Positions 1-20,000 of a stretch of 20,000 nt of DNA are shown one piece after another. The position numbers and the translations under genes are program-made. Every line of letters begins with the position of its first letter. The stretch's first letter is position 1. This stretch comes from an uncultured virus (IMG/VR IMGVR_UViG_3300033121_002286). Its lineage: Duplodnaviria > Heunggongvirae > Uroviricota > Caudoviricetes. The stretch lies in the IMG/VR virus record IMGVR_UViG_3300033121_002286; one strand, given 5' to 3'. Under the pieces are notes generated by a model. That model did no database searches and was not told where the DNA came from. It saw only the letters and a program-made list of their open reading frames with translations.

Positions 1-506
1 ATTGGAACACTGTCTGTCAAATAAACGTTGTTGTTTGATTTATAAAAGGTAAAACCATCATTATTCATTTGAACGGCATCTATTTTTAAAACGACAGGCG
101 ATCCATGTCGCTTACCAACATTGATAGCTGTTTCAAGATTATCAGACAAATGTACGTGATTTCTTGATTGTTTGGTTAGACCTAAATCCATAATTGATCC
201 AAGAAAGCGATGTGCGGTTCCATGATACAAAAAACCGGAAGGAATAAATGGTTGGAGTTCCACATCCACTTCTACACTATGCCCCTGCCTGGCTCTTATT
301 CTTTGTTGATGCTGGTCAAACTCAAACCTTTTTTTATCATTAGTTTCAACAATTTCATCAAGTTCTGTTTTTTTTATTTTTAAAATTTTTAAAATGTCAG
401 AAACATTTGCCCAACCCTTATCACTTAAAACTATCCCAACAGATTCGGGGTCATGCCTTAAAATTTTTGATAAAAATTTGCTTTGCCTTTGTAATTCTTT
501 TCTCAT
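1..506 (-). CDS. kptA: RNA 2'-phosphotransferase (KptA/Tpt1 family), 3' end beyond window edge
   Basis: Not in ORF track. Manual translation from ATG at 506: MRKELQRQSKFLSKILRHDPESVGIVLSDKGWANVSDIL...NDKKRFEF...RIRARQGHSV...LYHGT...RNHVHLS...VGKRHG...NNVYLTDSVP. It contains the Tpt1 motifs LRH, KKRF, IRAxQGHS, HGT and RxHVHLS. Confidence 0.95.
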   Translation of the reverse strand, partial: MRKELQRQSKFLSKILRHDPESVGIVLSDKGWANVSDILKILKIKKTELDEIVETNDKKRFEFDQHQQRIRARQGHSVEVDVELQPFIPSGFLYHGTAHRFLGSIMDLGLTKQSRNHVHLSDNLETAINVGKRHGSPVVLKIDAVQMNNDGFTFYKSNNNVYLTDSVP

Positions 507-536: not shown

Positions 537-3500
537 TTACAAACTTTTCTTTTTGCTTAAAACAATTTGCAACAAATCATCAAAAACACTATGTTTAACA
601 GAGTTCTCTCTGTGTTCACCATCTAAAATTTGCATTGTTATTTTTTCTTTTTTATTAAGCAACTCTTCGATATATTCATCTATTGTGTCTTGAACAACAA
701 GCCTTATAATTTGTACATTATCCGATTCTTGTCCTGCCCGATGACAACGATCCTCAGCCTGAATTCGATCTGATGGTGTCCATGGCTGATCAATAAAAAG
801 GACAGTACTGGCTGATGTCAAAGTAAGACCAACACCTGCAGCACCAATAGTTCCTGAAAACACCTTTTTCTTTTCATCTTCCATGAATTTTTCTCTTGCT
901 TCTTCCTTTTCCTCAGCCGATTTTTTCCCGGTATACCAAACAGCATTGTCTTTAAACTCCTCATATATCATTCGTGTTGTTTCAACATATTGAGAAAAAA
1001 CAACAACCTTTTCATCTCCATCAATTATGTTTCTTATAAATTCAAATGATCTTTGGGCACAAATTTTAGAAGTAAACATTTTTAATTTCTGAATTTTTGC
1101 CAAACCAACCATCCTATCATCATCTTCAGAGGTATCTTCAACAACTCCTTTTTCTAATTTTTTATATTCCCTTAATTCTTCTGGGGTTAAATAAATTGGA
1201 ATTATTGTATATGTTTTTGCTGGTAAATATTCTAAAACTCCAGGATCTTTTTTTCTTCTTCTTAAATATAAATAAGATAATTTTTGAAACAACTCTGCTT
1301 CATTCGTAGAATCATCATAATTCCAATGTCCCCACTCATCTTCTTTACCGCCACAATATTTTACTCCAAAACTGTGTGAGTTAACCCATTCAAAGGGATC
1401 AAGAAAGTTTAATACAGGAAAAAACTCATAAGGCTTGTTTTTAATGGCAGTTCCAGACATTAAAATTTTTCTTGGTGTCTTTTTAAATCCAGCATTAACA
1501 AGCTTGTATCTGCTCGATTTTACATTTTTGATATAATGACAATTAGATACCAGTATATTATTTGCATAATAATTATGATTGTCTGAAATTTCTAAATTAA
1601 AAACTTCTTTATTTCCAACACAACCGCTTCTATTGAATTGTCTATTTCCTGATTCCAGAATCTCAATACTTTCCACCCTAGAAAATTCAATATTTCCGTT
1701 TTCCTCTTGTCCAAAAATTTCCATTTTTTCATTAGATGCGTTTTTCCATCTACCTCTATTGATAATTTCAATTCTGGAAATGCCAAATCCACTTTGTAAT
1801 GATTTGGCAAACTTTTGAAAAATCCCCTCGCTGGCCTTGTTTTTATTGGATATTCCATTACCCATCCTTCTCCCAAAGAATCGTATAACCTTTGTTGCTG
1901 TTTTGTTATTTGTCCATTGCCACCTCTTGATAAAAATGTTTTTCCAACTGAACTCTTTTTCATTTTTTCTATGTTTTTTTGATCCGCCATAGGGTTGTTC
2001 AATTTCATTCGAATTGAAGATTTTTGGGCTCTTGCAGGGTTGTTCTGATAATTTTTTAAATTTGACTCTTTTACTTTTCGCTTGGTTTCTTCCGTATATA
2101 TCTTTGCCCTTATTTCCGGTTGGGACATTCTCCATTTTGCAGAACAATTCGTTGAACAAAATCTTCTTTTTTGAGATTGTTTTCCGTTTGATTTTATTTT
2201 GAATGTTTTTCCACACCATTGACATGATTTTACTATCAAAGGCTTTGAATTTCGTTTCTTTACTGCCAATTTTGATTTCTGGGTGTTCATAATTGTTTTT
2301 GAGGCGCAACTCACACTGCAATATTTTCCCTTTTTCCATATTTGCTTTTTGCTCAGCGGTTTTTGACAACACCCACACAGTATCTCCAGTTTTAATTTCT
2401 TCTGCTCTGACATATTTGTTTCCGTTTATATAGATTTTGTGATTTGGAGTGCAAACGATATCTTGTCCATTGTTTGTTCTTATTTTTAACAAACAAGATG
2501 ATGTTTGCTTCTTTATATATCTGTTTATTTTTTTATATTCATTTTTTTTTGTAATATGATTATAACTTAGTACTTTAAAATCTAAATTAAATTCAACCAA
2601 ATCTCCTATTGGAACATTACCAAATTCGGTCATAATATTTGTTTCATAAACAAAGCATTCATCAATTACGACCAAATCATAAATTGATGTTTTTAAATCC
2701 ACACCACCCTTGTCAACAAAACTACACAATTCTGTATTCCTAGATTTAACAGAATTTTCTTTAAAACACTTGGGACACATTTTGTGTTTTTTCACCTGGC
2801 TCACTTCATCAAAATCACAATAAGGATTTTGACATTTATGATGAACGTCAAACTTCAAATAAGTCTCTAAAGCATTATAACTTACAATGTGAATTTTACT
2901 TGTTTCTGGACTGCCCAATTGTAGTCCTTCTTTTTTCTTTATCTTATATTTAAAGACATATGGTACCTCATGTGTAAATTTCAAAATTTCCTTTGCCCAA
3001 ATAAGCGCAAGAGAGGCAGGACATATAATTAAAGTTTGGAAGTGGTGTTTGGCTGAATATGAAATTGCTGTAAGGGTCTTGCCCACACCTGGCTCATCCC
3101 CCAACAAAGCTACACCATCAGAACATTCAAAAAATTTAACAGCTTTCTTCTGATATAAATAAGGCTCGATCTTCATAAAAGAATAATCCTCATTTTTTAT
3201 TTCCTCATCAAAATCTCCATTCTTAAATTTTTCTACCTGGATTAATCTTTCTTTTCTTTTTTTAACATACTCTTCAACTTTCCAAATTTCTTTTTCTGAT
3301 AAATTTTCGTATTGATATAAAATGTGATTATCTTGACAATACCACATTATTTTCATTAATCCGTGAATGTTGCAAATATGAAACCAATCTTTTTTAGACT
3401 GTCCACTATCCGTAATTACAGTGTCAAAAGCGGTCTTAATCTGTTCTTTGGATATGGTTTTAAGGTGTTTTATGAGTTCTTCGTCATACCCAAACCTGAC

Positions 3501-3542
3501 CTGAAAATTGGTCCTTATACGTTTAATCTTGACTACTGGCAT
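537..3542 (-). CDS. SNF2-family (SMARCAL1/HARP-like) helicase precursor containing an intein; 629 aa after predicted splicing
   Basis: Q motif PYLYQ, Walker A LGDEPGVGKT, motif Ia LIICPASL, Walker B VVIDE/CH (split by the intein), motif III MSGTAIKN, and C-terminal motifs VVFSQY, AAGVGLTLT and QAEDRCHRAGQ. N-terminal VRFGYDEELIKHLKTI resembles a HARP domain. Confidence 0.93.
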   Translation of the reverse strand: MPVVKIKRIRTNFQVRFGYDEELIKHLKTISKEQIKTAFDTVITDSGQSKKDWFHICNIHGLMKIMWYCQDNHILYQYENLSEKEIWKVEEYVKKRKERLIQVEKFKNGDFDEEIKNEDYSFMKIEPYLYQKKAVKFFECSDGVALLGDEPGVGKTLTAISYSAKHHFQTLIICPASLALIWAKEILKFTHEVPYVFKYKIKKKEGLQLGSPETSKIHIVSYNALETYLKFDVHHKCQNPYCDFDEVSQVKKHKMCPKCFKENSVKSRNTELCSFVDKGGVDLKTSIYDLVVIDECFVYETNIMTEFGNVPIGDLVEFNLDFKVLSYNHITKKNEYKKINRYIKKQTSSCLLKIRTNNGQDIVCTPNHKIYINGNKYVRAEEIKTGDTVWVLSKTAEQKANMEKGKILQCELRLKNNYEHPEIKIGSKETKFKAFDSKIMSMVWKNIQNKIKRKTISKKKILFNELFCKMENVPTGNKGKDIYGRNQAKSKRVKFKKLSEQPCKSPKIFNSNEIEQPYGGSKKHRKNEKEFSWKNIFIKRWQWTNNKTATKVIRFFGRRMGNGISNKNKASEGIFQKFAKSLQSGFGISRIEIINRGRWKNASNEKMEIFGQEENGNIEFSRVESIEILESGNRQFNRSGCVGNKEVFNLEISDNHNYYANNILVSNCHYIKNVKSSRYKLVNAGFKKTPRKILMSGTAIKNKPYEFFPVLNFLDPFEWVNSHSFGVKYCGGKEDEWGHWNYDDSTNEAELFQKLSYLYLRRRKKDPGVLEYLPAKTYTIIPIYLTPEELREYKKLEKGVVEDTSEDDDRMVGLAKIQKLKMFTSKICAQRSFEFIRNIIDGDEKVVVFSQYVETTRMIYEEFKDNAVWYTGKKSAEEKEEAREKFMEDEKKKVFSGTIGAAGVGLTLTSASTVLFIDQPWTPSDRIQAEDRCHRAGQESDNVQIIRLVVQDTIDEYIEELLNKKEKITMQILDGEHRENSVKHSVFDDLLQIVLSKKKSL
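1542..2657 (-). mobile_element. Intein (372 aa, precursor residues 296-667) in the helicase Walker B motif
   Basis: Block A CFVYETNIMT, block B CTPNHKIY, block F/G VFNLEISDNHNYYANNILVSN followed by +1 Cys. Removing it restores VVIDE-CHYIKN. Confidence 0.95.
1592..2413 (-). CDS. Putative homing endonuclease (two Cys-rich zinc-finger-like modules, NUMOD3-like segment, DUF559/Vsr-like domain) nested in the +1 frame of the intein
   Basis: 273-aa ORF with CGCC...YCSVSC and CQWC...FCSTNC, YTEETKRKVKES, and C-terminal YKVDLAFPELKLSIEVDGKTH...DKRKTEILNFLGWKVLRFWNQEI, which is the DUF559/Vsr-like signature. Confidence 0.88.
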   Translation of the reverse strand: MSEQKKLKLEILCGCCQKPLSKKQIWKKGKYCSVSCASKTIMNTQKSKLAVKKRNSKPLIVKSCQWCGKTFKIKSNGKQSQKRRFCSTNCSAKWRMSQPEIRAKIYTEETKRKVKESNLKNYQNNPARAQKSSIRMKLNNPMADQKNIEKMKKSSVGKTFLSRGGNGQITKQQQRLYDSLGEGWVMEYPIKTRPARGFFKSLPNHYKVDLAFPELKLSIEVDGKTHLMKKWKFLDKRKTEILNFLGWKVLRFWNQEIDNSIEAVVLEIKKFLI

Positions 3543-4151: not shown

Positions 4152-4159
4152 CTATTTAT
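4152..4159 (+). promoter_or_regulatory. Recurrent phage promoter-like motif CTATTTAT
   Basis: 15 nt upstream of the endolysin ATG. Confidence 0.55.
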
Positions 4160-11136: not shown

Positions 11137-11766
11137 TTAACAAAAATGATCAGCTGCATACGAAGCCGCAAAACTAGCACAGTCGTTTGGTTTTTTTATA
11201 ACAAGATTAAAACCCACTGTTTTTAAATAGTTACTAGCTTCAGCAACAACGCCATTTGATTTTAAATTTTCATTTCCATTATAATCAGAATGTATTTCAA
11301 GAGGCATATTGATACTTCTGAAAAACTCCTTATTATTTCTGGCGAATTCAGCAGAGATATCAATTTCTCTCAAGAGCCTATATCTGTAATCATAAATTTT
11401 TGGAACATCAAATTTAAAAATCAAAGTATTAACTCCATTACGTTCGACTTTTAAGCACAGGGCCAAGACAAAACGAGTATACTGTAAATAATTCTGGGAA
11501 TCGCAGCCAACAAACGCCTCAACCTTTCTTCCGGCCATGGCATTGTCATATTGAAACTTCTTGATATATTCATGCAAATCCACATTGAGAGGAGTGAGGG
11601 TTTTCTTTTCTCCCAATGCTATTTTCCACTTAAAATCATAACGATCTTCAATGACGTATTTACCATCAACTAATGTTCCCCAATTTAACGCAGGATCATT
11701 GTTGTAAGTTTTAGAACTTTCTTCTCTAAGTTTCTTGAAATAATCTTTGTTATACTTCTTGCTCAT
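11137..11766 (-). CDS. RNase H-like YkuK (DUF458) family protein
   Basis: FVGCDSQ, RLLREIDISAE, LEIHSDYN and C-terminal FAASYAADHFC match the family pattern. Confidence 0.8.
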   Translation of the reverse strand: MSKKYNKDYFKKLREESSKTYNNDPALNWGTLVDGKYVIEDRYDFKWKIALGEKKTLTPLNVDLHEYIKKFQYDNAMAGRKVEAFVGCDSQNYLQYTRFVLALCLKVERNGVNTLIFKFDVPKIYDYRYRLLREIDISAEFARNNKEFFRSINMPLEIHSDYNGNENLKSNGVVAEASNYLKTVGFNLVIKKPNDCASFAASYAADHFC

Positions 11767-11793
11767 TGTATTAATTATTTAAAATATTAAAAT

Positions 11794-11834
11794 AAAAAAA
11801 ACCGATTAAGATTTTGAAGTCTTAACCGGTTTTT
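11794..11834 (-). terminator. Intrinsic terminator after the HAD gene
   Basis: Imperfect stem AAAAACCG(A)TTAAGA/TCTTAA(C)CGGTTTTT. Confidence 0.65.
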
Positions 11835-11858
11835 CAGGTATTTATTATAGATGTTAAT

Positions 11859-12554
11859 CTACAGACTTCTTTTTTCTTTTATGTTTGTTACGAAATGAGA
11901 AACAAAATTTACCGAAGGGTAAACTTGATTTACAGCTTCTTCCGCACCGGTGAGCCAATCCAATCTATCTTCATAGAAGTGAACTGTATCCCAACCATAC
12001 TCACGAATACTTTCAAGTATTGACTGAATTTTAAAATCTTTAATACTCAGTTTACCGGATTTATATGTTTTCAGGCCATAATTAGGTAACTCCATGCCTA
12101 ATGCATCAAGGGTATCAATAATTACTTGTGAAAGATTTTTATCTCGTCCAGTAAGGATCATTTTGTTTTCAGCTTTTTTGTATTCTTGATATATTGGTTC
12201 ATTAATTATTTTTCCTACAGTTTCAGGATCACTATGAAAGCCTGGAAATGGATTTAAAACCAAAATCCCATCCTTTTCTCCAAAATCCCTCTTATTTTTA
12301 AAGTAACTTTTTACATCTGACTTAAATGGTTGTCCTGTTTGAACATTAATTGGAACCACGAAATCACCCATGCGCTTAAATGAAATTTCTTTAAAAAGAT
12401 TTTCCAGAAAAGCAGCTTTGATTCTCAAGAAATAGGAAGGAAAATTTTGATCAGTGTCAATGTTTTCTCCAGATTTTGCTCCTGACATGTGGGCAAATTC
12501 TGGGGTTTCAACTAAAGTTCCATCTAAATCAAATATATGCAATACCTTACTCAT
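11859..12554 (-). CDS. HAD-superfamily hydrolase (resembles RNA-repair-associated HAD domains)
   Basis: Motif I IFDLDGTLVET, motif II ILTGR, conserved Lys in DFK, motif IV FYEDR. Confidence 0.8.
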   Translation of the reverse strand: MSKVLHIFDLDGTLVETPEFAHMSGAKSGENIDTDQNFPSYFLRIKAAFLENLFKEISFKRMGDFVVPINVQTGQPFKSDVKSYFKNKRDFGEKDGILVLNPFPGFHSDPETVGKIINEPIYQEYKKAENKMILTGRDKNLSQVIIDTLDALGMELPNYGLKTYKSGKLSIKDFKIQSILESIREYGWDTVHFYEDRLDWLTGAEEAVNQVYPSVNFVSHFVTNIKEKRSL

Positions 12555-12592
12555 TCTTAAATTAAATAGTCACTCAATTTCACAAAAATAAC

Positions 12593-12622
12593 AAAAAAGG
12601 CAACCAAACCAATGGTTGCCTT
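12593..12622 (-). terminator. Intrinsic terminator after the Hsp20 gene
   Basis: AAGGCAACCA/TGGTTGCCTT stem with a U tract on the minus strand. Confidence 0.75.
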
Positions 12623-12649
12623 ATAATTTACAATTTATAATCAACTAAC

Positions 12650-13084
12650 TTATTGAATATCAATAAATTTAGTTTCTTTCTTTTTTTCTTCTAATTTAGG
12701 AATATTGATTTTCAAAATTCCATTTTCTAATTTAGAAGTAATCGATTCCTCGTTTACATTATCCGGCAGCGTAAAACTCCTACTAAACGAAGAGAAGCTA
12801 AATTCTTTACGAACCAAATTATCATTTTTGGTTTCATTTTTAATTTCTTGTTCGTAGGCGATGTTTAGTTGACCTTTTTCAACAGAAATTTTCACATCAG
12901 ATTTTTGTAATCCTGGCAGGGCCACATCCATAACGATTTCTTTTTCGTTTTCCGTGATGTTTGTTGCGGGTCCAACGTTTACATTTCTAATTTGAAGTGG
13001 TTGAAAAATATCATCAAAGAAGCTATCTTTGAAGAAATCGGTTAATAAACTTGGTTTGTAGTTTGATGTTTTAATTAAGTTCAT
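12650..13084 (-). CDS. hsp20: Small heat-shock protein (Hsp20/alpha-crystallin family)
   Basis: PATNITE, LPGLQKSDVKI, EFSFSSFSRSFTLP and SKLENGILKINIPK. The ATG at 13084 (MNLIK) is preferred over the track start at 13138. Confidence 0.95.
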   Translation of the reverse strand: MNLIKTSNYKPSLLTDFFKDSFFDDIFQPLQIRNVNVGPATNITENEKEIVMDVALPGLQKSDVKISVEKGQLNIAYEQEIKNETKNDNLVRKEFSFSSFSRSFTLPDNVNEESITSKLENGILKINIPKLEEKKKETKFIDIQ

Positions 13085-13147
13085 TTTTGTTCTCCTTTTA
13101 ATTTTTAATTTAAAAGAGAAAAACAAAAAATATACCAATAGAAAAAA

Positions 13148-13468
13148 CTAGTTTAAACCTGAAAAATTGTCAGAATCAATTTTAAAATCTGATGAGTTGA
13201 TGACAAAATTTCTTAAATCATCATTATTTTCTTGTGTGTTTTTTGCTTTATGACTAGACAAACCTCCTGGGTTTTCAAGTTGAAGTAATTGATTTTTCCA
13301 GTTATGAAGTCTGTATGTGTATCCAAGTAATGATTGTTCGTAATTTAATTTTTTAGCCTCTGGCAATTTTGGCATTGGATTTTTATATCCTGCTCGAATT
13401 GCTCTCGCTTTTAAATCTGAAACTTCTTTTAAAAGTTCTTCCATATAATTTAATTTATGGTCTTTCAT
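13148..13468 (-). CDS. Hypothetical protein
   Basis: 106-aa ORF in a co-oriented run. Confidence 0.75.
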   Translation of the reverse strand: MKDHKLNYMEELLKEVSDLKARAIRAGYKNPMPKLPEAKKLNYEQSLLGYTYRLHNWKNQLLQLENPGGLSSHKAKNTQENNDDLRNFVINSSDFKIDSDNFSGLN

Positions 13469-13479
13469 CTTTTTGTTTT

Positions 13480-13788
13480 TTAGTTATTGTCTTTTTTTTT
13501 CACTATTTTCTTTTCGGGCTCTTGTATGTTTCTACAGTCGTGCGGGAACACTCTTATGATATTGTTTATAGTATCATAAGTAGAGTGAACTAAATCAAGA
13601 ACATATTTATTTCCTTTTGTATCAGATATAATACACCTTCCATCCGCATTGTTTTTATATAAAACATTCATCATTTTTGATGTTGCTTCATTAAATTCAT
13701 CCTGAGAATTATATTCTATGTCAAGATAATTCCACTTTCCATCTTTGTTTTGAGATGGCTTTCTTGTTATAATTCCAATGTTTTCCAT
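13480..13788 (-). CDS. Hypothetical protein
   Basis: The ATG at 13788 (MENIG) is preferred over the track start at 13848. Confidence 0.75.
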   Translation of the reverse strand: MENIGIITRKPSQNKDGKWNYLDIEYNSQDEFNEATSKMMNVLYKNNADGRCIISDTKGNKYVLDLVHSTYDTINNIIRVFPHDCRNIQEPEKKIVKKKDNN

Positions 13789-13858
13789 AATAATAATAGA
13801 TTTATAAATTATAAATTCAAAATTAGAAAAAAATAAAATAGAAAACAAGTATTTTTAA

Positions 13859-14311
13859 TCAAATTCCTAATATTTCATAAGAAAAAATAGGAACTAAATA
13901 ATCCCTAAATTTATAGTCACATTCAAGTGTAAAATCAAGATAATCAACATCATAATCAAAGCCGTTTTTAAGTAAATTGCCGTAAGAATCAAAAAAATAG
14001 ATTTTAATAATTTCTATTTTTTCAAAATCCTTTATCCACTCATTGATTTTTAGGTAAGTTTTAACCTTTATTACTTTTCTTTTTTCAATAGTTTCAATTT
14101 TAAAACCTTTTATCCTTTCTGGATTTACAACAAAATCTTTGGTTTCCATTTTCAGACAAAAACGATCTTGGAGTATAAAACTTGTATCATAAGAAAAAAT
14201 AATTTTTTTTTCTTCAACAAATGAGTCCGGGACAAAAATATCTTGTTGAATAAAATCTTTTTCATTCATTATTTCCAAAAGCAATTCTCTTCTTCTGGTT
14301 CTAAACCTCAT
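13859..14311 (-). CDS. Hypothetical protein, weak resemblance to tail-tube-like folds
   Basis: 150-aa ORF abutting the upstream stop. QDRFCL, FFDSYGNLL and LECDY loosely recall T4 gp19-like proteins (low confidence in function). Confidence 0.7.
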   Translation of the reverse strand: MRFRTRRRELLLEIMNEKDFIQQDIFVPDSFVEEKKIIFSYDTSFILQDRFCLKMETKDFVVNPERIKGFKIETIEKRKVIKVKTYLKINEWIKDFEKIEIIKIYFFDSYGNLLKNGFDYDVDYLDFTLECDYKFRDYLVPIFSYEILGI

Positions 14312-15094
14312 TTAAACTACACGGTGTTTGTACTTTAATAATTTTTGCATTCTAACAGCATCTAAAACCAAACCATCTCCATTATTTAAGGTGATTATAA
14401 AGTTCTTAGACAATGCATCTTCAATTATTTCAAAACTTAATCTTGTGTCATTAATTCTAAATCCTCTTTCTGAAAAAAGAACTTCAAAAGGAGTTCCTGA
14501 CTTAGATTCAAATTTAACTTTAAAAGCTTTTTTTGCTGGTGCTTGATTTTGTTGTTGTTGTTGTGGGAAAATACTATCCATTTCGTTTATATCATTTTGT
14601 GCAACACCCATACCGGCCCTCTTTAATATTGGCATAGAAATATTTTTATCATACATTTCTTGAACTTGGCCTCTCAGTTGGTTTAGTTGTTCTGCACTTT
14701 GTTTAATTTGATCCATTTGAAGTTGGAGTGCCTTTTGTGTTTCAATGGCTTTCTTTTTCATCTCTTCCTGTTTTGCCATTAGGTTAGTTTTTGTTTGATT
14801 TATTGATTGGAGTTTTTTTTGGCTATCTTTAATTGCCATATCTTTAACTTTCCTTTTAGTTGGATCATTAATAATAGATTTTATTTTAGAATTATTCTGG
14901 ATCTTATCTTTTTCACCCTTTTCTTCTACATCCAAAAAAGAAAAAACTGGTTCTGTAATTGCCTTTAAATCCTCTTCAGTAGACTGAGTTTGTTTGTTAA
15001 TATCAATATTACCCATAGAATCTTGATCCAGGCTGATATTACCCAAAGCTGTTTCTATTATTAAATCTATTTCTTTAATACTTAATTTTTTCAT
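14312..15094 (-). CDS. Hypothetical coiled-coil protein
   Basis: 260-aa ORF with a Q/K-rich coiled coil; its start codon abuts the predicted left end of the TnpB element. Confidence 0.85.
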   Translation of the reverse strand: MKKLSIKEIDLIIETALGNISLDQDSMGNIDINKQTQSTEEDLKAITEPVFSFLDVEEKGEKDKIQNNSKIKSIINDPTKRKVKDMAIKDSQKKLQSINQTKTNLMAKQEEMKKKAIETQKALQLQMDQIKQSAEQLNQLRGQVQEMYDKNISMPILKRAGMGVAQNDINEMDSIFPQQQQQNQAPAKKAFKVKFESKSGTPFEVLFSERGFRINDTRLSFEIIEDALSKNFIITLNNGDGLVLDAVRMQKLLKYKHRVV

Positions 15095-16385
15095 AATTTA
15101 TAAGTGCAGGAAACCCATTCATCACGAAGTGTGGATGGAAGGAATGCACCTGCTTTTACATTTCCTATAATATTTTTTTCTAATATTTGAATTTTTAATT
15201 TTTTTGTACTATTTATGTATAAATGAAACTGACTCTTAAAATAAAACTTCTTGCAACAGATGAGCAATCTAAACATTTGCTTAATACCATTAGGGAAGCA
15301 AATTTGGCTTGCAATATAATTTCGAATGTGGTTTGGGAAAAAAGAATTTTTAATCAGTTTAAAATTCACAATGAAGTTTATCATTCGATTAAGGAATCCA
15401 CCAACCTTTCTGCTCAAGTAATCATACGCTGCATCAGCAAAGTGACGGATGCATATAAGTTGGACAAAAAAACCAAACGTATATTTAGACCACTGGGAAG
15501 CATAACTTACGACCCAAGAATTCTTTCGTATACTCCAAATGATACCGTTTCCATTTGGACAGTCGGTGGTCGTTTGAAAAAACTTCCATTTATATGTCAC
15601 AACAGAAATTACCTTCCTTATATTAAGGGCGAGGCTGATCTTGTTTATAAAAAAGGAAAATTTTATTTGTTTCAAACGGTAGAAGTTCCTGATGAAAAAA
15701 TAACGGATGTGGAAGAATTTATCGGTATTGATTTTGGTATTACAGATATTATATCCACCTCTGATAATATTAAACATTCGGCTGAATGGCTCAATAACTA
15801 TAGAGAAAAAAAACAAAACATACGCAGTTCTATCCAAGCAAAGGCAGACACTTCTAAGCGTTCCACAAAAAGGAATTGTAGGAAATTGTCCAAACGGCTT
15901 TCGGGCAAGGAAAAAACAACGGCAACAATAATTAATCACACCATTTCCAAATCTATTGTAAAACTTGCTAAAGAGCAAAACAAAGGAATTGCTATTGAAG
16001 ATTTGACTGGTATTCGTTTTGCTTCTAAAAAAAGAAATAAAACCTTTAGAACAAAACTTGGCAAATGGAATTTCCATCAACTTCGTTCTTTTTTGGAATA
16101 CAAGAGTGTTCTTTCCGGGGTTAAGTTGGTTGTTGTTCCTCCTGCATACACCAGTCAAATGTGTCATGTATGCAAACACATTGGAAAGCGAACAAACAAG
16201 GTTTTCGAATGTACAAATGAAAATTGCAAGGAAAAAATTCTTGACGCTGACAATAATGCCAGCAAGAACATTTCTTTGCTTGGGGTTGCTATAAATCAGC
16301 CTGAAAAATCGACTCTGTATTGCACTATGCATTCTGTGTCAGGTTTAAAACCCAATCATCACATAAGTGTGATTGGGTAGTTTAT
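15095..16385 (+). mobile_element. Non-autonomous IS200/IS605-family element (tnpB only)
   Basis: Homologous subterminal hairpins flank tnpB: left GAAA-CCCATTCATCAC-GAA-GTGTGGATGG (15110-15138) and right AAAA-CCCAATCATCAC-ATAA-GTGTGATTGGG (16347-16377). No tnpA is present. The ends are inferred from the guide/cleavage tetranucleotide rule; a left end at 15102 is an alternative. Confidence 0.8.
15223..16380 (+). CDS. tnpB: TnpB RNA-guided endonuclease
   Basis: RuvC I IGIDFG, RuvC II IAIEDL, zinc finger YTSQMCHVC...FECTNENC, RuvC III DADNNASKNI. All three catalytic acidic residues are present. Confidence 0.96.
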   Translation: MKLTLKIKLLATDEQSKHLLNTIREANLACNIISNVVWEKRIFNQFKIHNEVYHSIKESTNLSAQVIIRCISKVTDAYKLDKKTKRIFRPLGSITYDPRILSYTPNDTVSIWTVGGRLKKLPFICHNRNYLPYIKGEADLVYKKGKFYLFQTVEVPDEKITDVEEFIGIDFGITDIISTSDNIKHSAEWLNNYREKKQNIRSSIQAKADTSKRSTKRNCRKLSKRLSGKEKTTATIINHTISKSIVKLAKEQNKGIAIEDLTGIRFASKKRNKTFRTKLGKWNFHQLRSFLEYKSVLSGVKLVVVPPAYTSQMCHVCKHIGKRTNKVFECTNENCKEKILDADNNASKNISLLGVAINQPEKSTLYCTMHSVSGLKPNHHISVIG

Positions 16386-16405
16386 GTTCAAAACTCTATA
16401 TAAAT
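16230..16405 (+). ncRNA. Predicted omegaRNA/reRNA (tnpB 3' end, right-end hairpin and flanking guide)
   Basis: Inferred from the established TnpB architecture. The right-end hairpin is visible, the 5' boundary is a guess, and the guide is predicted to start at 16386. Confidence 0.5.
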
Positions 16406-16413
16406 AGCCTTAT

Positions 16414-16450
16414 AAAAAGAAAAACCGCATCAAAAAAATGCGGTTCTTTT
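16414..16450. terminator. Bidirectional intrinsic terminator
   Basis: AACCGCAT/ATGCGGTT stem with A and T tracts on either side. Confidence 0.7.
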
Positions 16451-16491
16451 AGTTTGAAAGCAATCTACAATATTTGATAAATATTAAAAAA

Positions 16492-16674
16492 TCATTTCCC
16501 CATCAACGAATCTAAATAAGCTTTAAATTTCTTTTTCTGAGCTTCCACAAGAGATTGACGCTTTTTAGTTCTTTCAGCCTTGTTAGCTTGTGTCTTCTTA
16601 AATCTAGCCGCCCTTTTCTCTCCCCTCTTTAAGGTTGCCATTCTTTTCTTAATGCTTTTTTCAGGTTTTCTCAT
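16492..16674 (-). CDS. Small very basic protein
   Basis: 60-aa K/R-rich ORF preceded by ATATTTAT (16691-16698) and followed by a terminator. Confidence 0.7.
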   Translation of the reverse strand: MRKPEKSIKKRMATLKRGEKRAARFKKTQANKAERTKKRQSLVEAQKKKFKAYLDSLMGK

Positions 16675-16724
16675 TTTGAATTAATTTTTAATAAATATAA
16701 ATCTCAACAATAAAAAATCAATAA

Positions 16725-18998
16725 TTATTCTCCCCTTTTTTCTAATTCATCTCTTGCTTCTGCAGCCTTTTCAAAATCTCCAGCATCTATTGATTTTAAA
16801 ATGAAGTTTTTTAATTCCTGGGTTTGCATTTGATCAAATGGTTTTAATTGAACAGGTTCCTCTTTTTTAACTATTGGTTTATTTAACATATCTCCTATTT
16901 GACCCATCAAATTTTGAATATTGCCAAAATCAGCAACAGGAATTTCTTCATCTGGACCTTGTTGTTCAAGATCATACTCAACCCGATCTAACATTTTTTC
17001 AAGCCACACCACAGCTCTTGCCCCGTCATTTATCAACAAATCAACTAAACGTAAGAACTTATCTGGTGGAAGCATAGATATTTCTTGCAACAAATAAGCA
17101 ACTATTGTATAATCCGAATCTCTTCCCTTTACAATAAAATCTATTGCATCATGCAAATATTTCCATATTCTTGGACCTAAAAGTTTATGCCAATATTCAT
17201 AATGAAATTGATCTGATTGTTTCATTATTGCACGATTTATTTTTTCGGTATATTGTGGCAAACCATTAGCAAAAATATATTCAATAACAGCCTTTACCGT
17301 TTCATGTAGCAAAACCGGAAAAACAGTTGCTTCCGCAACTGCTCCAGTTACTTCTCTAATTCCATCACCATTTTTGTCATCACCCAATATAAGTTCTGAT
17401 TTTCCGTGAATTGGAATATTTGTAATTTTATTATTTTCTATTTCAATATCACCCTTTTCAAATGGTTTGTTTTTCCAAAGAGATAAATTGTGAGCACTCA
17501 TTATTTTAACATAAAAATTATACAACTCAGGATTAATCGCATCAAGTGCTGGTTTTATTTTTTCTAAAAGATTGTGTGCTTTAAAACCGGCACCCATCAT
17601 CAAAGTATTAGCAATAATTCTCTTATCAACATTTTGTTTAATTATCGCTTGTTCTTCAGGTGTAAAATCATCTATTAACTCTTCTTCATCAAAATCCTGA
17701 TCTTCTACTTTAAAATCAATATCATTTGGGTTTGATTGTAGTTTTACCTGTATCTCATCCATTACATCTTGAGGAACACCAAAATATTTTTGCACAACAT
17801 TTTTTGCAAGCCTTTCAAGTGTGTCTTTATGTTTTTGCTGTACTCCCATTGCTTTTTGCAAATACATTAAGACATCCATATCACTCATATTTTCAGCACC
17901 AAATTTTTTTGCAGTGTCAACAACATCTTTATACTCTTCATCACCCAATTTTTCAATTGTTTTTTGCACATCCCCTTTGTGTAAAATATCAATTTTAGAA
18001 AAAGGGTTTGTGCCTCTTTTTTCTATATTTCTTTTTGCATCATCATTTGGCCCACCTATTTTATCATCTTTATAATTCATTGGAGCATCTTCTTGAATTT
18101 CTGATTTTGCCTTTGGAGCTGGTTTTGCACCAGGATGAATTTGTGGTTTTAATATACGCCTTGGGTTGGGTTGTGCAGGGGCTGGTTGAACTCCTGGTTT
18201 AATTTTAGGTTGTGCTGGTGCAACTTCTTGACCTGCTTTTGGGGCAGGTTTTGCACCAGGATGAATTTGTGGTTTTAATATACGTCTTGGGTTAGGTTGT
18301 GCAGGAGCAGGTTGAACATTTGGTTTAATTTTAGGTTGTGCTGGTGCTATTTCAGGACTTTCAAAAAAGTTTTTTACAGTTTCAAAAATTTTCTTTCTTA
18401 TAATATTTTCATCTGATTGTTTTGACTCTTGCATTTGTATTTTTCCTTTTAATATTCCTAACACTAGCTCATCTGAATTTTCAAAGTTATCCTTATTATT
18501 TTTTAAAACATTATAAATGGCACCATACATTCTTGTATCACCTTCATTATATGAAATAGTAGATTTGGATTCTTTGTAAAAATCCAACATTTCTTTTGAT
18601 TGATTTGTTTTCTGAAGCCAACTTTCTATTATAGATAGTGCATATTTATTTGCTTGGCGTTCTTCTTCTAATGCAATTTGAATATATTTATCTAATGGAT
18701 ACTTGGTTAACGAAACCATATCATAATCTATAGTATCATATCTTTTAAAGTGTCCGGTTTCATGTAAAATAATAAAAACTGCTTTTTCATAATTATTAGA
18801 ATTTATGGTCTTAAAACTTTCAGACAAAAAAACTCCACTTCTAAGTGAAATAGCGCCAAACCTCCCGCCAAAAACCGGAAAATCTTCTATAAAAAAGGGC
18901 ACACTTGATGCTTCAGTGTTTAAAAACTCTGAAAATAGAGAAGAAAAATCAGGGTTGAATTTATGAATTTGGGATACTATATGATCTAACTTTGACAT
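16725..18998 (-). CDS. Large modular protein: HExxH metallopeptidase-like N-domain, Pro-rich repeats, helical domain, UVR-like C-terminal motif
   Basis: ILHETGH...EEERQAN, two 42-aa Pro-rich units, FPVLLHETVKAVIE, and SIDAGDFEKAAEARDEL at the C-terminus. Confidence 0.8.
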   Translation of the reverse strand: MSKLDHIVSQIHKFNPDFSSLFSEFLNTEASSVPFFIEDFPVFGGRFGAISLRSGVFLSESFKTINSNNYEKAVFIILHETGHFKRYDTIDYDMVSLTKYPLDKYIQIALEEERQANKYALSIIESWLQKTNQSKEMLDFYKESKSTISYNEGDTRMYGAIYNVLKNNKDNFENSDELVLGILKGKIQMQESKQSDENIIRKKIFETVKNFFESPEIAPAQPKIKPNVQPAPAQPNPRRILKPQIHPGAKPAPKAGQEVAPAQPKIKPGVQPAPAQPNPRRILKPQIHPGAKPAPKAKSEIQEDAPMNYKDDKIGGPNDDAKRNIEKRGTNPFSKIDILHKGDVQKTIEKLGDEEYKDVVDTAKKFGAENMSDMDVLMYLQKAMGVQQKHKDTLERLAKNVVQKYFGVPQDVMDEIQVKLQSNPNDIDFKVEDQDFDEEELIDDFTPEEQAIIKQNVDKRIIANTLMMGAGFKAHNLLEKIKPALDAINPELYNFYVKIMSAHNLSLWKNKPFEKGDIEIENNKITNIPIHGKSELILGDDKNGDGIREVTGAVAEATVFPVLLHETVKAVIEYIFANGLPQYTEKINRAIMKQSDQFHYEYWHKLLGPRIWKYLHDAIDFIVKGRDSDYTIVAYLLQEISMLPPDKFLRLVDLLINDGARAVVWLEKMLDRVEYDLEQQGPDEEIPVADFGNIQNLMGQIGDMLNKPIVKKEEPVQLKPFDQMQTQELKNFILKSIDAGDFEKAAEARDELEKRGE
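18108..18353 (-). repeat. Tandem duplication with 126-nt period (about 2 copies), encoding a Pro-rich 42-aa unit
   Basis: GGTTTTGCACCAGGATGAATTTGTGGTTTTAATATACG occurs at 18121 and 18247; unit E[IV]APAQPKIKP[NG]VQPAPAQPNPRRILKPQIHPGAKPAPKA. Confidence 0.95.
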
Positions 18999-19025
18999 TT
19001 GTATGGTTTATACTATTAAATATTT

Positions 19026-19060
19026 AAAAAAAAAGAAGGGCGGTAATCAGCCGCCCTTTT
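19026..19060 (-). terminator. Intrinsic terminator after the vWA gene
   Basis: AAGGGCGG/CCGCCCTT stem with a long U tract on the minus strand. Confidence 0.8.
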
Positions 19061-19089
19061 AATCAACAATCACCAACTTAACTTAAAAA

Positions 19090-19914
19090 TTAAATCTTTT
19101 GGTCCTGGTCTGTCGTATTTTTTAATTGATCTTTTAACTTTTGTTCATCTTCATCAATTGTATTGCCATCAATAACGCTACTGAAATATTCCACATTACT
19201 TGTTCCAGCAAATCCAACAGCGTTTATATCAGCAGCCCTTGTGCTCATTGATCTACTTAATACTTGGGATGCATTTGCAGTGCCCACTGCACTAGAATAA
19301 TAATTAAGAGTATTTCCTCTGTCAATTCCAAGGTTTGAACTCACCAACACAGAATCCTGGTTCGCTCCAAGGAAAGAAATTGTCCAACGCTGATCTTTAT
19401 TGAGCTTTTCAACAAGGGGTTTTACTTTGTTGGCATCCCATTTTTCAGGGTGAACTTGAGAGTTGTTTTCACCACCATCAGTCATAATCACAACAACAGC
19501 GCTAACTATCTTATCCTTTTCAATCATTTTTGGTGATAGTTTGTCTTGGAGCTTTGTTATTCCCATCCCCATTGCATGATGTAATGCAGTTAAACCACCC
19601 GGCACATAGCTTTCTTCGGTAAGTGGTTTAACTTCTGATACAGGAACATCCATCATTACCTCTTGCATATCATCACTAAAAGTAATGAGGCTTATAAAAT
19701 ATTTTTGATCTGGGTATTTTTCTTCTAATTTTTTAATTGTTTGCAACTGTTCATTGAAATTGTTAATAGTTGCCTGGCGAACAGAAGACATTGACCCACT
19801 TTTATCTAAAATCAAAAGGTAATGAGTTTCCACTAATTTAGGGGTAATAATCTCTTCAGTAACAGTTGTGGTGGTTGTTACTGTAGTTTTTGTAACTTTT
19901 TGTGCGTTTTCCAT
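19090..19914 (-). CDS. von Willebrand factor A (vWA) domain protein
   Basis: MIDAS motif LILDKSGSMS, plus GLTAL, VIMTDG and FLGANQD. Confidence 0.92.
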   Translation of the reverse strand: MENAQKVTKTTVTTTTTVTEEIITPKLVETHYLLILDKSGSMSSVRQATINNFNEQLQTIKKLEEKYPDQKYFISLITFSDDMQEVMMDVPVSEVKPLTEESYVPGGLTALHHAMGMGITKLQDKLSPKMIEKDKIVSAVVVIMTDGGENNSQVHPEKWDANKVKPLVEKLNKDQRWTISFLGANQDSVLVSSNLGIDRGNTLNYYSSAVGTANASQVLSRSMSTRAADINAVGFAGTSNVEYFSSVIDGNTIDEDEQKLKDQLKNTTDQDQKI

Positions 19915-19969
19915 TTTTTAAGATTTAATTGTAATTGTAAATATACTAATTTAAAAATTAAAAATAAAT

Positions 19970-20000
19970 AAAAAATCCGGGAAAATTTTGCCCGGATTTT
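19970..20000 (-). terminator. Probable intrinsic terminator of a gene outside the window
   Basis: AAAATCCGGG/CCCGGATTTT inverted repeat. Confidence 0.6.

What the first reader, a model, noticed from the sequence alone, without database searches (positions are those of the whole stretch)
15090..16407. TnpB element appears inserted exactly between a phage promoter motif and a start codon (predicted TAM TTCAT)
Known (IS608-type rule): the 4 nt at the foot of each hairpin pair with the cleavage tetranucleotide (guide 1:site 2, 2:1, 4:4). Seen: the left guide GAAA predicts TCnT, and TCAT lies at 15091-15094, which puts the guide at +16 to +19 as in IS608. The right guide AAAA predicts TTnT, and TTAT lies at 16382-16385. 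TCAT is the reverse complement of ATGA, the start of gene 14312..15094. Removing 15095-16385 gives, on the minus strand, CTATTTAT-ATAGAGTTTTGAAC-ATG. This returns the otherwise orphan motif at 16400-16407 to 14 nt from an ATG, like the other genes. Inference: an element whose target motif biases it to start codons in antisense orientation, leaving ORFs intact.
Basis: partly seen in the sequence, partly recalled or inferred. Interest (0 to 1): 0.72.

Follow-up and report, generated by a model that had tools for sequence, protein, structure and literature searches.

The report
TnpB transposon parked on start codon
A small jumping gene carrying an RNA-guided nuclease sits backwards exactly in front of a phage gene's start codon, and it keeps its reverse strand free of stop codons, probably so that ribosomes can read across it and the phage gene still gets made.

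Summary
Window 15095-16385 (1291 bp) is a TnpB-only IS200/IS605-type element. It is inserted right after TTCAT (15090-15094), whose complement ATGAA holds the ATG of phage gene 14312..15094.

- **Ends fixed three ways.** (1) 80 related elements share TTCAT|left end and ...GGTAGTTTA(C/T)|right end. (2) At least 114 exact empty sites exist for one relative. (3) A public metagenome contig of this same phage skips exactly 1291 bases, 15092->16384 with 2 ambiguous bases. That excludes the rival left end at 15102.
- **Start codons.** 25 of 39 independent insertions sit on start codons, against 109 of 979 other ATGAA sites.
- **Antisense frame (not in the finding).** A codon-aligned antisense ORF (15091..16332, 413 codons) spans the element and ends at the TGA inside ATGAA. 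It is open in 74 of 80 relatives. Its amino-acid sequence is unconstrained.

I read this ORF as a translated bridge that spares the downstream gene. That step is inferred, not shown. This scan noted the same idea before on other DNA (e1-6123301, e1-6080969, e1-5933019). Seven literature searches and one review found no description.

The parts
15090..15094 (+). Target-adjacent motif TTCAT. On the minus strand it reads ATGAA: the ATG of the phage gene plus an overlapping TGA.
   Evidence: Conserved at 40 of 43 independent insertion sites. The empty allele joins here.
15095..16385 (+). TnpB-only IS200/IS605-type element, 1291 bp.
   Evidence: Family alignments of both ends. A contig in run X7 skips exactly 1291 bases.
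15104..15148 (+). Left-end subterminal imperfect hairpin. The guide tetranucleotide GAAA (15110-15113) lies inside the outer stem, 5' of the inner hairpin.
   Evidence: DNA fold. The same architecture is seen in relatives.
15209..15216 (+). CTATTTAT motif 6 nt upstream of the tnpB ATG. It is the same motif as upstream of several phage genes.
15223..16380 (+). tnpB, 385 aa. The RuvC D170/E259/D343 residues and the CxxC...C zinc-finger residues are present.
16347..16385 (+). Right end: guide AAAA (16347-16350), hairpin (16350/1-16377/8), tail TAGTTTAT.
   Evidence: Fold z -4.55. Compensatory changes in relatives.
16386..16401 (+). Flank that an omega-RNA read out of the right end would carry as guide. 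Together with TTCAT it forms the target in the empty allele. This is inferred.
   Evidence: Inference from the known IS200/IS605 TnpB mechanism (Meers et al. preprint, passages read). Not tested here.
15091..16332 (-). Codon-aligned antisense ORF, 413 codons. Its ATG lies 53 nt inside the right end. Its stop TGA overlaps the host ATG as ATGA.
14312..15094 (-). Phage gene (260 aa, no family) whose start codon abuts the element.
16400..16407 (-). Phage promoter-like motif CTATTTAT. It lies 14 nt from the ATG in the empty allele.
16420..16448 (.). Two-way terminator-like hairpin that closes the upstream minus-strand gene 16492..16674.

Best explanation
Window 15095-16385 is a non-autonomous (TnpB-only, IS1341-type) member of the IS200/IS605 family. 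It inserted by single-strand 'peel and paste' immediately 3' of its target motif TTCAT. No target duplication was made (shown).

The complement of TTCAT is ATGAA, so the only gene-sparing places in a dense phage genome are start codons and ATGA stop/start junctions, with the element lying backwards. Selection keeps those insertions (shown statistically).

Here the element separates gene 14312..15094 from its own promoter motif. The element family offsets this with a stop-free, codon-aligned antisense frame. In this window the frame starts at an ATG 53 nt inside the right end. All three reading frames are closed by stops in the 47 nt before that ATG. The frame runs about 410 codons through tnpB and the left end, and it stops at the TGA of ATGAA.

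I infer that ribosomes translate this frame on the host's read-through transcript. That would keep the transcript from polarity or decay and would deliver ribosomes to the overlapping ATG. The peptide itself would be junk.

TnpB and its guide RNA would cut the empty allele (TTCAT followed by GTTCAAAACTC...). This step is inferred from the family.

My confidence by step:
- Identity and borders: about 0.97.
- TAM plus selection explains the start-codon bias: about 0.85.
- The antisense frame is kept open by selection: about 0.9.
- It works as a translated bridge: about 0.55.
For: **Borders**
- Family alignment of the left and right ends.
- Exact empty sites for relative L058: at least 114 matches. 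Of the 80 fetched, 79 align up to 2882 and resume at 4153.
- Empty allele of this same phage: X7 record 20 skips 1291 bases.

**Start-codon bias**
- 25 of 39 insertions against 109 of 979 other ATGAA sites.
- 17 of 43 sites are ATGA junctions behind an upstream ORF of at least 60 codons.

**Antisense frame**
- tnpB has 372 consecutive codons without TTA, CTA or TCA. The 26 phage genes use these codons at 345 of 5891, and their longest such run is 75 codons.
- 23 antisense stops are expected from the TnpB sequence and phage codon usage; P(none) is 6e-14.
- The 129-nt non-coding left spacer is stop-free in only 84 of 5000 shuffles.
- The frame is open for at least 350 codons in 74 of 80 viral relatives.
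- 66 of 69 full-length bacterial relatives have at most 4 in-frame antisense stops, against 6-38 in the other phases.
- Three distant TnpBs used as controls have 25, 10 and 12.
- The stop lies at the ATGA in 25 of 53 distinct elements, and within -10..+8 nt of the host ATG in 35 of 53.
- A start codon lies 23-56 nt inside the right end in 50 of 53.

**Only openness is selected**
- In pairs at 50-60% amino-acid identity, four-fold sites match at 0.34-0.40, against 0.35-0.36 expected from composition.
- CTA accounts for 2 of 1123 CTN codons and TCA for 32 of 1129 TCN codons.
- Of 16 substitutions between strains, 15 change the antisense residue and none makes a stop.
Against: - There are no expression data. 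No stranded RNA was laid on the window, so translation of the antisense frame is not shown.
- The phase rule is not universal. 18 of 53 distinct elements end the frame more than 10 nt from the host ATG, fuse to it, or have lost it.
- Counted as distinct left-end lengths, only about half are multiples of 3.
- The counts are not corrected for shared descent.
- The antisense start codon coincides with a near-invariant His codon of TnpB, so its conservation may owe nothing to the antisense frame.
- In this window the gene has its own promoter. The bridge would therefore be a first cistron, not a link between two host genes.
- 14 of 39 insertions are not at start codons.
Confidence: 0.55

Rival explanations
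1. This is an ordinary TnpB-only insertion and nothing more. The start-codon position follows from the TTCAT motif plus loss of gene-breaking insertions. The downstream gene is expressed from signals in the left end or from read-through. The antisense frame has no role: it is a by-product that is never translated.
For: - TAM plus survivorship is enough to explain the site bias.
- There are no expression data.
- The antisense product looks like no protein: Atlas recognition score 882, best hit 0.78; 0 Pfam and 0 PHROG families.
- Some relatives live without the frame: L053 has 29 stops and L074 has 3.
Against: - A by-product does not explain frame-specific avoidance of exactly the three codons that make antisense stops. 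P(none) is 6e-14, and CTA is 2 of 1123 CTN codons.
- It does not explain persistence at 40-81% identity across phyla.
- It does not explain the absence of the trait in three distant TnpBs.
- It does not explain the extension through the non-coding left end to the TAM's TGA.
Confidence: 0.2
2. The antisense frame is translated only to shield the read-through transcript from Rho-dependent termination or RNase attack. The downstream ATG is found by ribosomes independently. The ATGA overlap is a side effect of the TAM sequence.
For: - 18 of 53 distinct elements do not stop within 10 nt of the ATG, yet mostly keep the frame open.
- Phage genes here lack Shine-Dalgarno sequences and have A/T-rich leaders, so free initiation is plausible.
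Against: - The stop sits exactly at the ATGA in 25 of 53 elements and within -10..+8 nt in 35 of 53.
- The 43 non-coding codons of the left end stay open up to the junction. Shielding alone would not require that.
Confidence: 0.15
3. The antisense ORF encodes a functional accessory protein of the element.
For: It is a long conserved ORF with a conserved start position.
Against: - Four-fold sites of tnpB, which are the first codon positions of the antisense frame, are saturated at deep divergence.
- 15 of 16 strain differences change the antisense residue, including C>W, C>R, P>L and S>P.
- It matches no Pfam or PHROG family.
- The Atlas recognition score is 882, in the range of shuffled sequences.
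Confidence: 0.07

Closest known systems
IS200/IS605 family, TnpB-only (IS1341-type) elements with omega-RNA, such as the ISGst elements of Geobacillus stearothermophilus (Meers et al., bioRxiv 10.1101/2023.03.14.532601; passages read) and ISDra2 (recalled)
   Same: - Subterminal hairpins.
- Insertion 3' of a 5-nt motif without duplication.
- TnpB with RuvC and zinc-finger residues.
- An empty site made of TAM plus flank, as the presumed nuclease target.
- TTCAT is itself a known TAM: it is that of the IscB element ISGst5 in that paper.
   Different: - This clade keeps a stop-free, codon-aligned antisense frame across the whole element, ending at the TAM's own TGA.
- Its surviving insertions concentrate on start codons and ATGA junctions.
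- The passages I searched in that paper hold no occurrence of 'antisense'.
IS608 of Helicobacter pylori: recognition of the cleavage site by a guide tetranucleotide at the hairpin foot (recalled, no paper read here)
   Same: - The guide lies directly 5' of each hairpin, and 19 nt separate the left cleavage site from the inner hairpin.
- The right-end pair AAAG/TTAC (or AAAA/TTAT) covaries at position 4.
   Different: - No TnpA lies in the element.
- The left target is TTCAT, not TTAC.
- The right tail is 8 nt.
IStrons: a group I intron joined to an IS605/IS607-type element (PMC4227781 and bioRxiv 10.1101/2023.11.20.567912; starts of the abstracts seen in the search listing)
   Same: A TnpB-bearing transposon with a built-in device that makes insertions harmless to the host gene.
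   Different: - IStrons remove themselves from the mRNA by splicing, in the sense orientation.
- Here no intron is found (no Rfam family reaches its gathering score).
- Here the proposed device is translation across the element on the antisense strand.

Membership tests
IS200/IS605 (IS1341-type, TnpB-only) | Subterminal imperfect hairpins at both ends and no terminal inverted repeats | tested here: met
   Folds (right end z -4.55, left end weak at z -0.94). Right-end hairpins with compensatory changes in 33 distinct relatives.
IS200/IS605 (IS1341-type, TnpB-only) | Insertion 3' of a fixed 4-5 nt motif with no target-site duplication | tested here: met
   The empty allele skips exactly 1291 bases. 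79 of 80 empty sites of L058 are exact. TTCAT is present at 40 of 43 sites.
IS200/IS605 (IS1341-type, TnpB-only) | Cleavage sites paired with a guide tetranucleotide at the hairpin foot | tested here: met
   Right-end position 4: G-C 25, A-T 6, G-T 2, A-C 0, of 33 scored. Fisher p 2.5e-5, not corrected for descent. At the left end, GAAG goes with TTCAC in L031.
IS200/IS605 (IS1341-type, TnpB-only) | TnpB with RuvC D-E-D residues and a zinc finger | tested here: met
   PF07282 at 1.5e-17. D170, E259, D343 and C314/C317/C330 are invariant in a 13-sequence alignment. Aligns to solved Cas12f and TnpB chains at 9e-19.
IS200/IS605 (autonomous members) | Y1 HUH transposase TnpA inside the element | tested here: not met
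   None of the 28 ORFs in the window matches a Y1 transposase family. Only 128 nt separate the left end from tnpB. The element is therefore non-autonomous and must be moved in trans.
IS200/IS605 (IS1341-type, TnpB-only) | Omega-RNA encoded over the 3' end of tnpB and the right end | tested here: inconclusive
   No Rfam family reaches its gathering score. RNAalifold on 12 right ends gave only 4 pairs, because of gaps in the alignment.
IS200/IS605 (IS1341-type, TnpB-only) | TAM-dependent, RNA-guided DNA cleavage | not testable with these tools
   Needs a cleavage or plasmid-interference assay.
Antisense overlapping protein-coding gene | Purifying selection on the amino-acid sequence of the antisense product | tested here: not met
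   Four-fold sites are saturated. 15 of 16 strain differences are non-synonymous in the antisense frame. No family matches.

The most novel reading that the evidence does not exclude
A whole clade of TnpB transposons, found in phages and in bacteria of several phyla, is built to be 'translationally transparent'. It lands backwards on ATGAA. Its right end (complement RTAAAC) gives the upstream gene a new TAA stop and preserves that gene's last codon. A junk antisense cistron then carries ribosomes about 1.2 kb across the element. The TAM's own TGA hands them to the overlapping ATG. An operon therefore keeps working with a nuclease gene hidden inside it. This would be a translation-level counterpart of self-splicing IStrons and inteins.
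Probability: 0.45. Interest if true: 0.85.

Novelty: new variant of a known kind. Interest (0 to 1): 0.72.

Why it matters
Insertion sequences are textbook causes of polar mutations. An IS family that avoids this by letting ribosomes read through it backwards would be a new way for selfish DNA to lower its cost. It would help explain why TnpB elements persist in dense phage genomes. It would also warn annotators that a long, conserved, stop-free frame need not encode a functional protein.

Practical value:
- The TAM (TTCAT) and the exact ends of a compact 385-aa TnpB are now fixed by natural empty and filled alleles.
- The bridge idea can be tested directly with stop codons that are silent for TnpB.

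Tried and rejected
- **Whole genome of the window.** None is held.
- **Phage relatives.** blastn of 14300-17200 against 50,697 phage records gave no match.
- **Flanking proteins.** Neither the 260-aa nor the 757-aa protein has a relative in viral contigs.
- **Predicted empty junction of the window as an 18-mer in viral contigs.** It gave 17 hits, but none shares flank similarity by blastn, so they are chance matches. The tblastx step printed nothing and is not used.
- **First left-end regex.** It was faulty and was replaced. In one search I set the left junction by hand from the printed sequences for L011, L031, L034, L038, L042, L057, L076 and L077.
- **Rfam.** Only sub-threshold terminator-like matches.
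- **RNAalifold on the right-end and omega-RNA region.** Uninformative.
- **Left-end fold alone.** Not better than shuffles (z -0.94).
- **ESM Atlas on the antisense product.** Nothing above 0.78.
- **Alternative left end at 15102 (TAM TTTAT).** Rejected by the 1291-base skip.
- **Literature.** Searches, and term searches inside one preprint and one 2026 review, gave no description of the antisense frame or of start-codon parking. Subscription journals are outside that library.
Full report
**What is there**

The window is phage DNA at 31% G+C. It encodes an endolysin, a SNF2 helicase with an intein, a PD-(D/E)XK exonuclease and a Tpt1 RNA 2'-phosphotransferase. From about 11137 to 20000 all genes run on the minus strand, except one.

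That exception is ORF 15223..16380 (+), 385 aa, which is a TnpB:
- Pfam PF07282 at 1.5e-17.
- PF01385 at 26.2 bits, below its cut-off of 30.5.
- PHROG 506 'transposase' at 5.7e-35.
- It aligns to solved Cas12f and TnpB chains at 9e-19.
- It keeps the invariant D170, E259, D343 and zinc-finger cysteines of its clade.
- None of the 28 ORFs scanned is a Y1 transposase.

**The ends of the element**

*Related elements.* A protein-guided scan of viral contigs gave 124 relatives from 130 candidate stretches. The best 80 were kept, at 56-81% identity.
- Printed in register, the DNA left of tnpB is alike up to a point 90-141 nt upstream. Immediately left of that point stands TTCAT, and beyond it the sequences are unrelated.
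- On the right, all relatives share a hairpin followed by TAGTTTA(C/T) and then diverge.
- Applied to the window, this gives 15094|15095 and 16385|16386, an element of 1291 bp.

*Empty sites of a relative.* I joined the two flanks of relative L058 into a 26-base pattern.
- 79 of the 80 fetched loci align to L058 up to base 2882 and again from 4153.
- This is a clean 1272-bp insertion with 2 ambiguous bases.

*Empty allele of this phage.* No relative of the window's own flanks is in the viral or phage collections. Public metagenome runs hold the phage.
- Contigs of X2, X3 and X4 (three sludge studies) carry the filled allele. X2 record 1 spans 14300-17300 with 57 differences.
- A 1007-base contig of X7 (a river study) covers 14701-15092 with 0 differences and 16384-16997 with 6. 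It joins the two directly and 'skips 1291', with 2 bases (AT) that fit either side.
- So the empty allele reads ...TTTTTCAT|GTTCAAAAC... and does not keep AATTTAT.
- The empty contig's flanks are closer to the window than the filled X2 contig is. This points to recent excision or to spread of the element between strains. It rests on metagenome consensus contigs.

**The recognition rule**

- Both ends have a hairpin with a tetranucleotide at its 5' foot (GAAA on the left, AAAA on the right).
- I scored 33 of 41 distinct right ends. In 7 the last stem base did not pair in the fold, and 1 was non-standard.
- The fourth guide base pairs with the last base of the element: G with C in 25, A with T in 6, G with T in 2, A with C in 0 (Fisher p 2.5e-5, not corrected for descent).
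- On the left, the one relative with TTCAC has GAAG in place of GAAA (L031).
I recall the rule and read no paper on it.

**Start codons**

TTCAT is the motif at 40 of 43 independent sites. I rebuilt each empty site in a script. A site counted as a start codon if the complement ATG opened at least 60 codons and had at most 20 open codons upstream.
- 25 of 39 scorable insertions qualify. One site ran off its contig and three have variant TAMs.
- Only 109 of 979 other ATGAA sites in the same loci qualify (11%; binomial p 4.5e-15).
- In 17 of 43 sites the TGA of ATGAA also closes an upstream ORF of at least 60 codons. These are stop/start-coupled junctions.
- In such sites the complement of the right end (A/G)TAAAC completes the split last codon and supplies a TAA. 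This follows from the sequences.
- Flanks are mostly coded on the strand opposite to tnpB: 33 of 43 right flanks and 30 of 43 left flanks.
- The window's case is a promoter-proximal start. A terminator-like hairpin (16420-16448) is followed by CTATTTAT (16400-16407), then 14 nt, then the junction.
- CTATTTAT has 6 exact copies in the window. Five lie 6-19 nt upstream of start codons.

**The antisense frame (not in the finding)**

*In the window.*
- The ORF listing shows ORF 15091..16332 (-), 413 codons, codon-aligned with tnpB. It ends at the TGA that overlaps the host ATG.
- tnpB has 372 consecutive codons without TTA, CTA or TCA. These are the only codons that read as stops on the aligned antisense frame.
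- The 26 phage genes use these codons at 345 of 5891, and none has a run longer than 75 codons.
- Given TnpB's residues and the phage's synonymous usage, 23 antisense stops are expected; P(none) is 6e-14.
- The other two minus-strand frames of the element hold 25 and 33 stops.
- The 129-nt non-coding spacer at 26% G+C stays open in only 84 of 5000 dinucleotide shuffles.

*In relatives.*
- The frame is open for at least 350 codons in 74 of 80 viral relatives. Of the six exceptions, two are cut by contig ends, two have a broken tnpB, and two have lost the frame: L053 with 29 stops and L074 with 3.
- I scanned 74 of the 80 bacterial-genome relatives at 40-71% identity. Six partial matches were left out. 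They come from Bacteroidota, Chloroflexota, Acidobacteriota and other phyla.
- Of these, 69 have a tnpB of at least 350 codons. 66 of the 69 have at most 4 in-frame antisense stops, against 6-38 in the other phases.
- In 28 of 68 the frame ends at a TCA inside NTCAT, 96 nt or more upstream of tnpB.
- Three distant phage TnpBs (27-30% identity) have 25, 10 and 12 in-frame antisense stops, so the trait is not general to tnpB.

*Anatomy of the frame.* These counts are among 53 distinct element sequences.
- 50 have a start codon (ATG, GTG or TTG) 23-56 nt inside the right end.
- The stop is the ATGA overlap in 25, and lies within -10..+8 nt of the host ATG in 35.
- The frame runs in phase into the host gene in 7.
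- In the window, the 47 nt before the antisense ATG hold stops in all three frames (read).

*What is selected.* Only openness is selected.
- In pairs at 50-60% TnpB identity, four-fold sites agree at 0.34-0.40, against 0.35-0.36 expected from composition.
- CTA is 2 of 1123 CTN codons and TCA is 32 of 1129 TCN codons. A-ending codons are 15-27% in the other six four-fold families.
- Between the window and the X2 strain, 16 listed differences fall inside tnpB. Ten are silent for TnpB. Fifteen change the antisense residue. None makes a stop. Only the 40 best-supported of 67 differences were listed.
- The antisense product matches no Pfam or PHROG family. Its ESM Atlas recognition score is 882, in the range of shuffled sequences.

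**Reading**

- *Shown:* the element's identity, its ends and TAM, the natural empty and filled alleles, the excess of insertions at start codons, and the selection that keeps the antisense frame open.
- *Inferred:* ribosomes translate this frame on the host's read-through transcript. This would prevent polarity and pass ribosomes to the overlapping ATG.
- *Also inferred, from the family:* an omega-RNA with guide 16386 onward, cleavage of the empty allele, and mobilisation by a TnpA in trans.
- *Rivals:* a shield against Rho only, a real accessory protein, or a by-product. They are weighed in their own sections.

**Known or new**

- TTCAT is a published TAM, for the IscB element ISGst5 (Meers et al. 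preprint, passages read).
- IStrons are the known case of TnpB-type transposons made harmless to host genes, by RNA splicing (starts of the abstracts seen in the listing).
- Seven full-text searches found no description of an antisense frame in tnpB or of insertion at start codons. Neither did a term search in a 2026 review of OMEGA systems.
- The library lacks most subscription journals, and I saw no supplements.
- This scan's own notes record the same reading on other genomes. I reached the antisense observation before opening them. One note's title led me to test coupled junctions.

Noticed in passing
window 15209-15216: tnpB's own upstream region carries the phage's CTATTTAT motif 6 nt before its ATG. 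Most relatives instead have a TAnnTTTG-like box there (for example GTATATTTGC). The closest relative, L056, shares the phage-like version. The element's promoter may have adapted to this phage's transcription signals.
   Followed up: partly
window 14548-14563: A TTG/CAA triplet run (poly-Gln) lies in gene 14312..15094. Strains X2 and X3 carry 9 extra bases (TTGTTGTTG), an in-frame repeat-length polymorphism (table 4).
   Followed up: no
window 537-3542 (-): The SNF2-type helicase gene is interrupted by an intein. Pfam Intein_splicing covers residues 309-667, between the SNF2 N-terminal part and the Helicase_C domain.
   Followed up: no
window 3-506 (-), 11859-12554 (-), 11137-11766 (-): A Tpt1/KptA RNA 2'-phosphotransferase (6e-49) lies here with a weak match to a HAD domain of 'Swiss Army Knife' RNA-repair proteins (0.0032, below cut-off) and an RNaseH-like protein. 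This may be a phage RNA-repair set.
   Followed up: no
window 16330-16332, TnpB residue H370: The antisense start codon is the complement of a near-invariant His codon (CAT or CAC, giving ATG or GTG) in TnpB's poorly conserved C-terminal tail. The His may be conserved for the antisense start, not for TnpB.
   Followed up: partly
L058-L066 against L060 (viral contigs): In nine contigs the antisense frame runs in phase into the 231-codon host gene, giving a 645-codon open frame. Variant L060 has a 1-base deletion in the left end that moves the TAM's TGA into the frame, yet the frame then closes 77 nt before the ATG.
   Followed up: partly
L053 and L074 (viral contigs); L263, L268, L289 (bacterial contigs): These relatives have lost the open antisense frame, with 3 to 29 in-frame stops. 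L053 lies in a 675-kb contig at 26% G+C. They could serve as natural controls.
   Followed up: no
L056:3001-4154: The closest relative of the window's TnpB (81% identity) has a broken tnpB of 235 codons. Its antisense frame is cut at the same region. It is a decaying copy at the start of a 156-codon ORF.
   Followed up: no
window 16420-16448: A two-way terminator-like hairpin lies 35 nt beyond the right end. On the plus strand it would also end any tnpB or guide-RNA read-out transcript.
   Followed up: no
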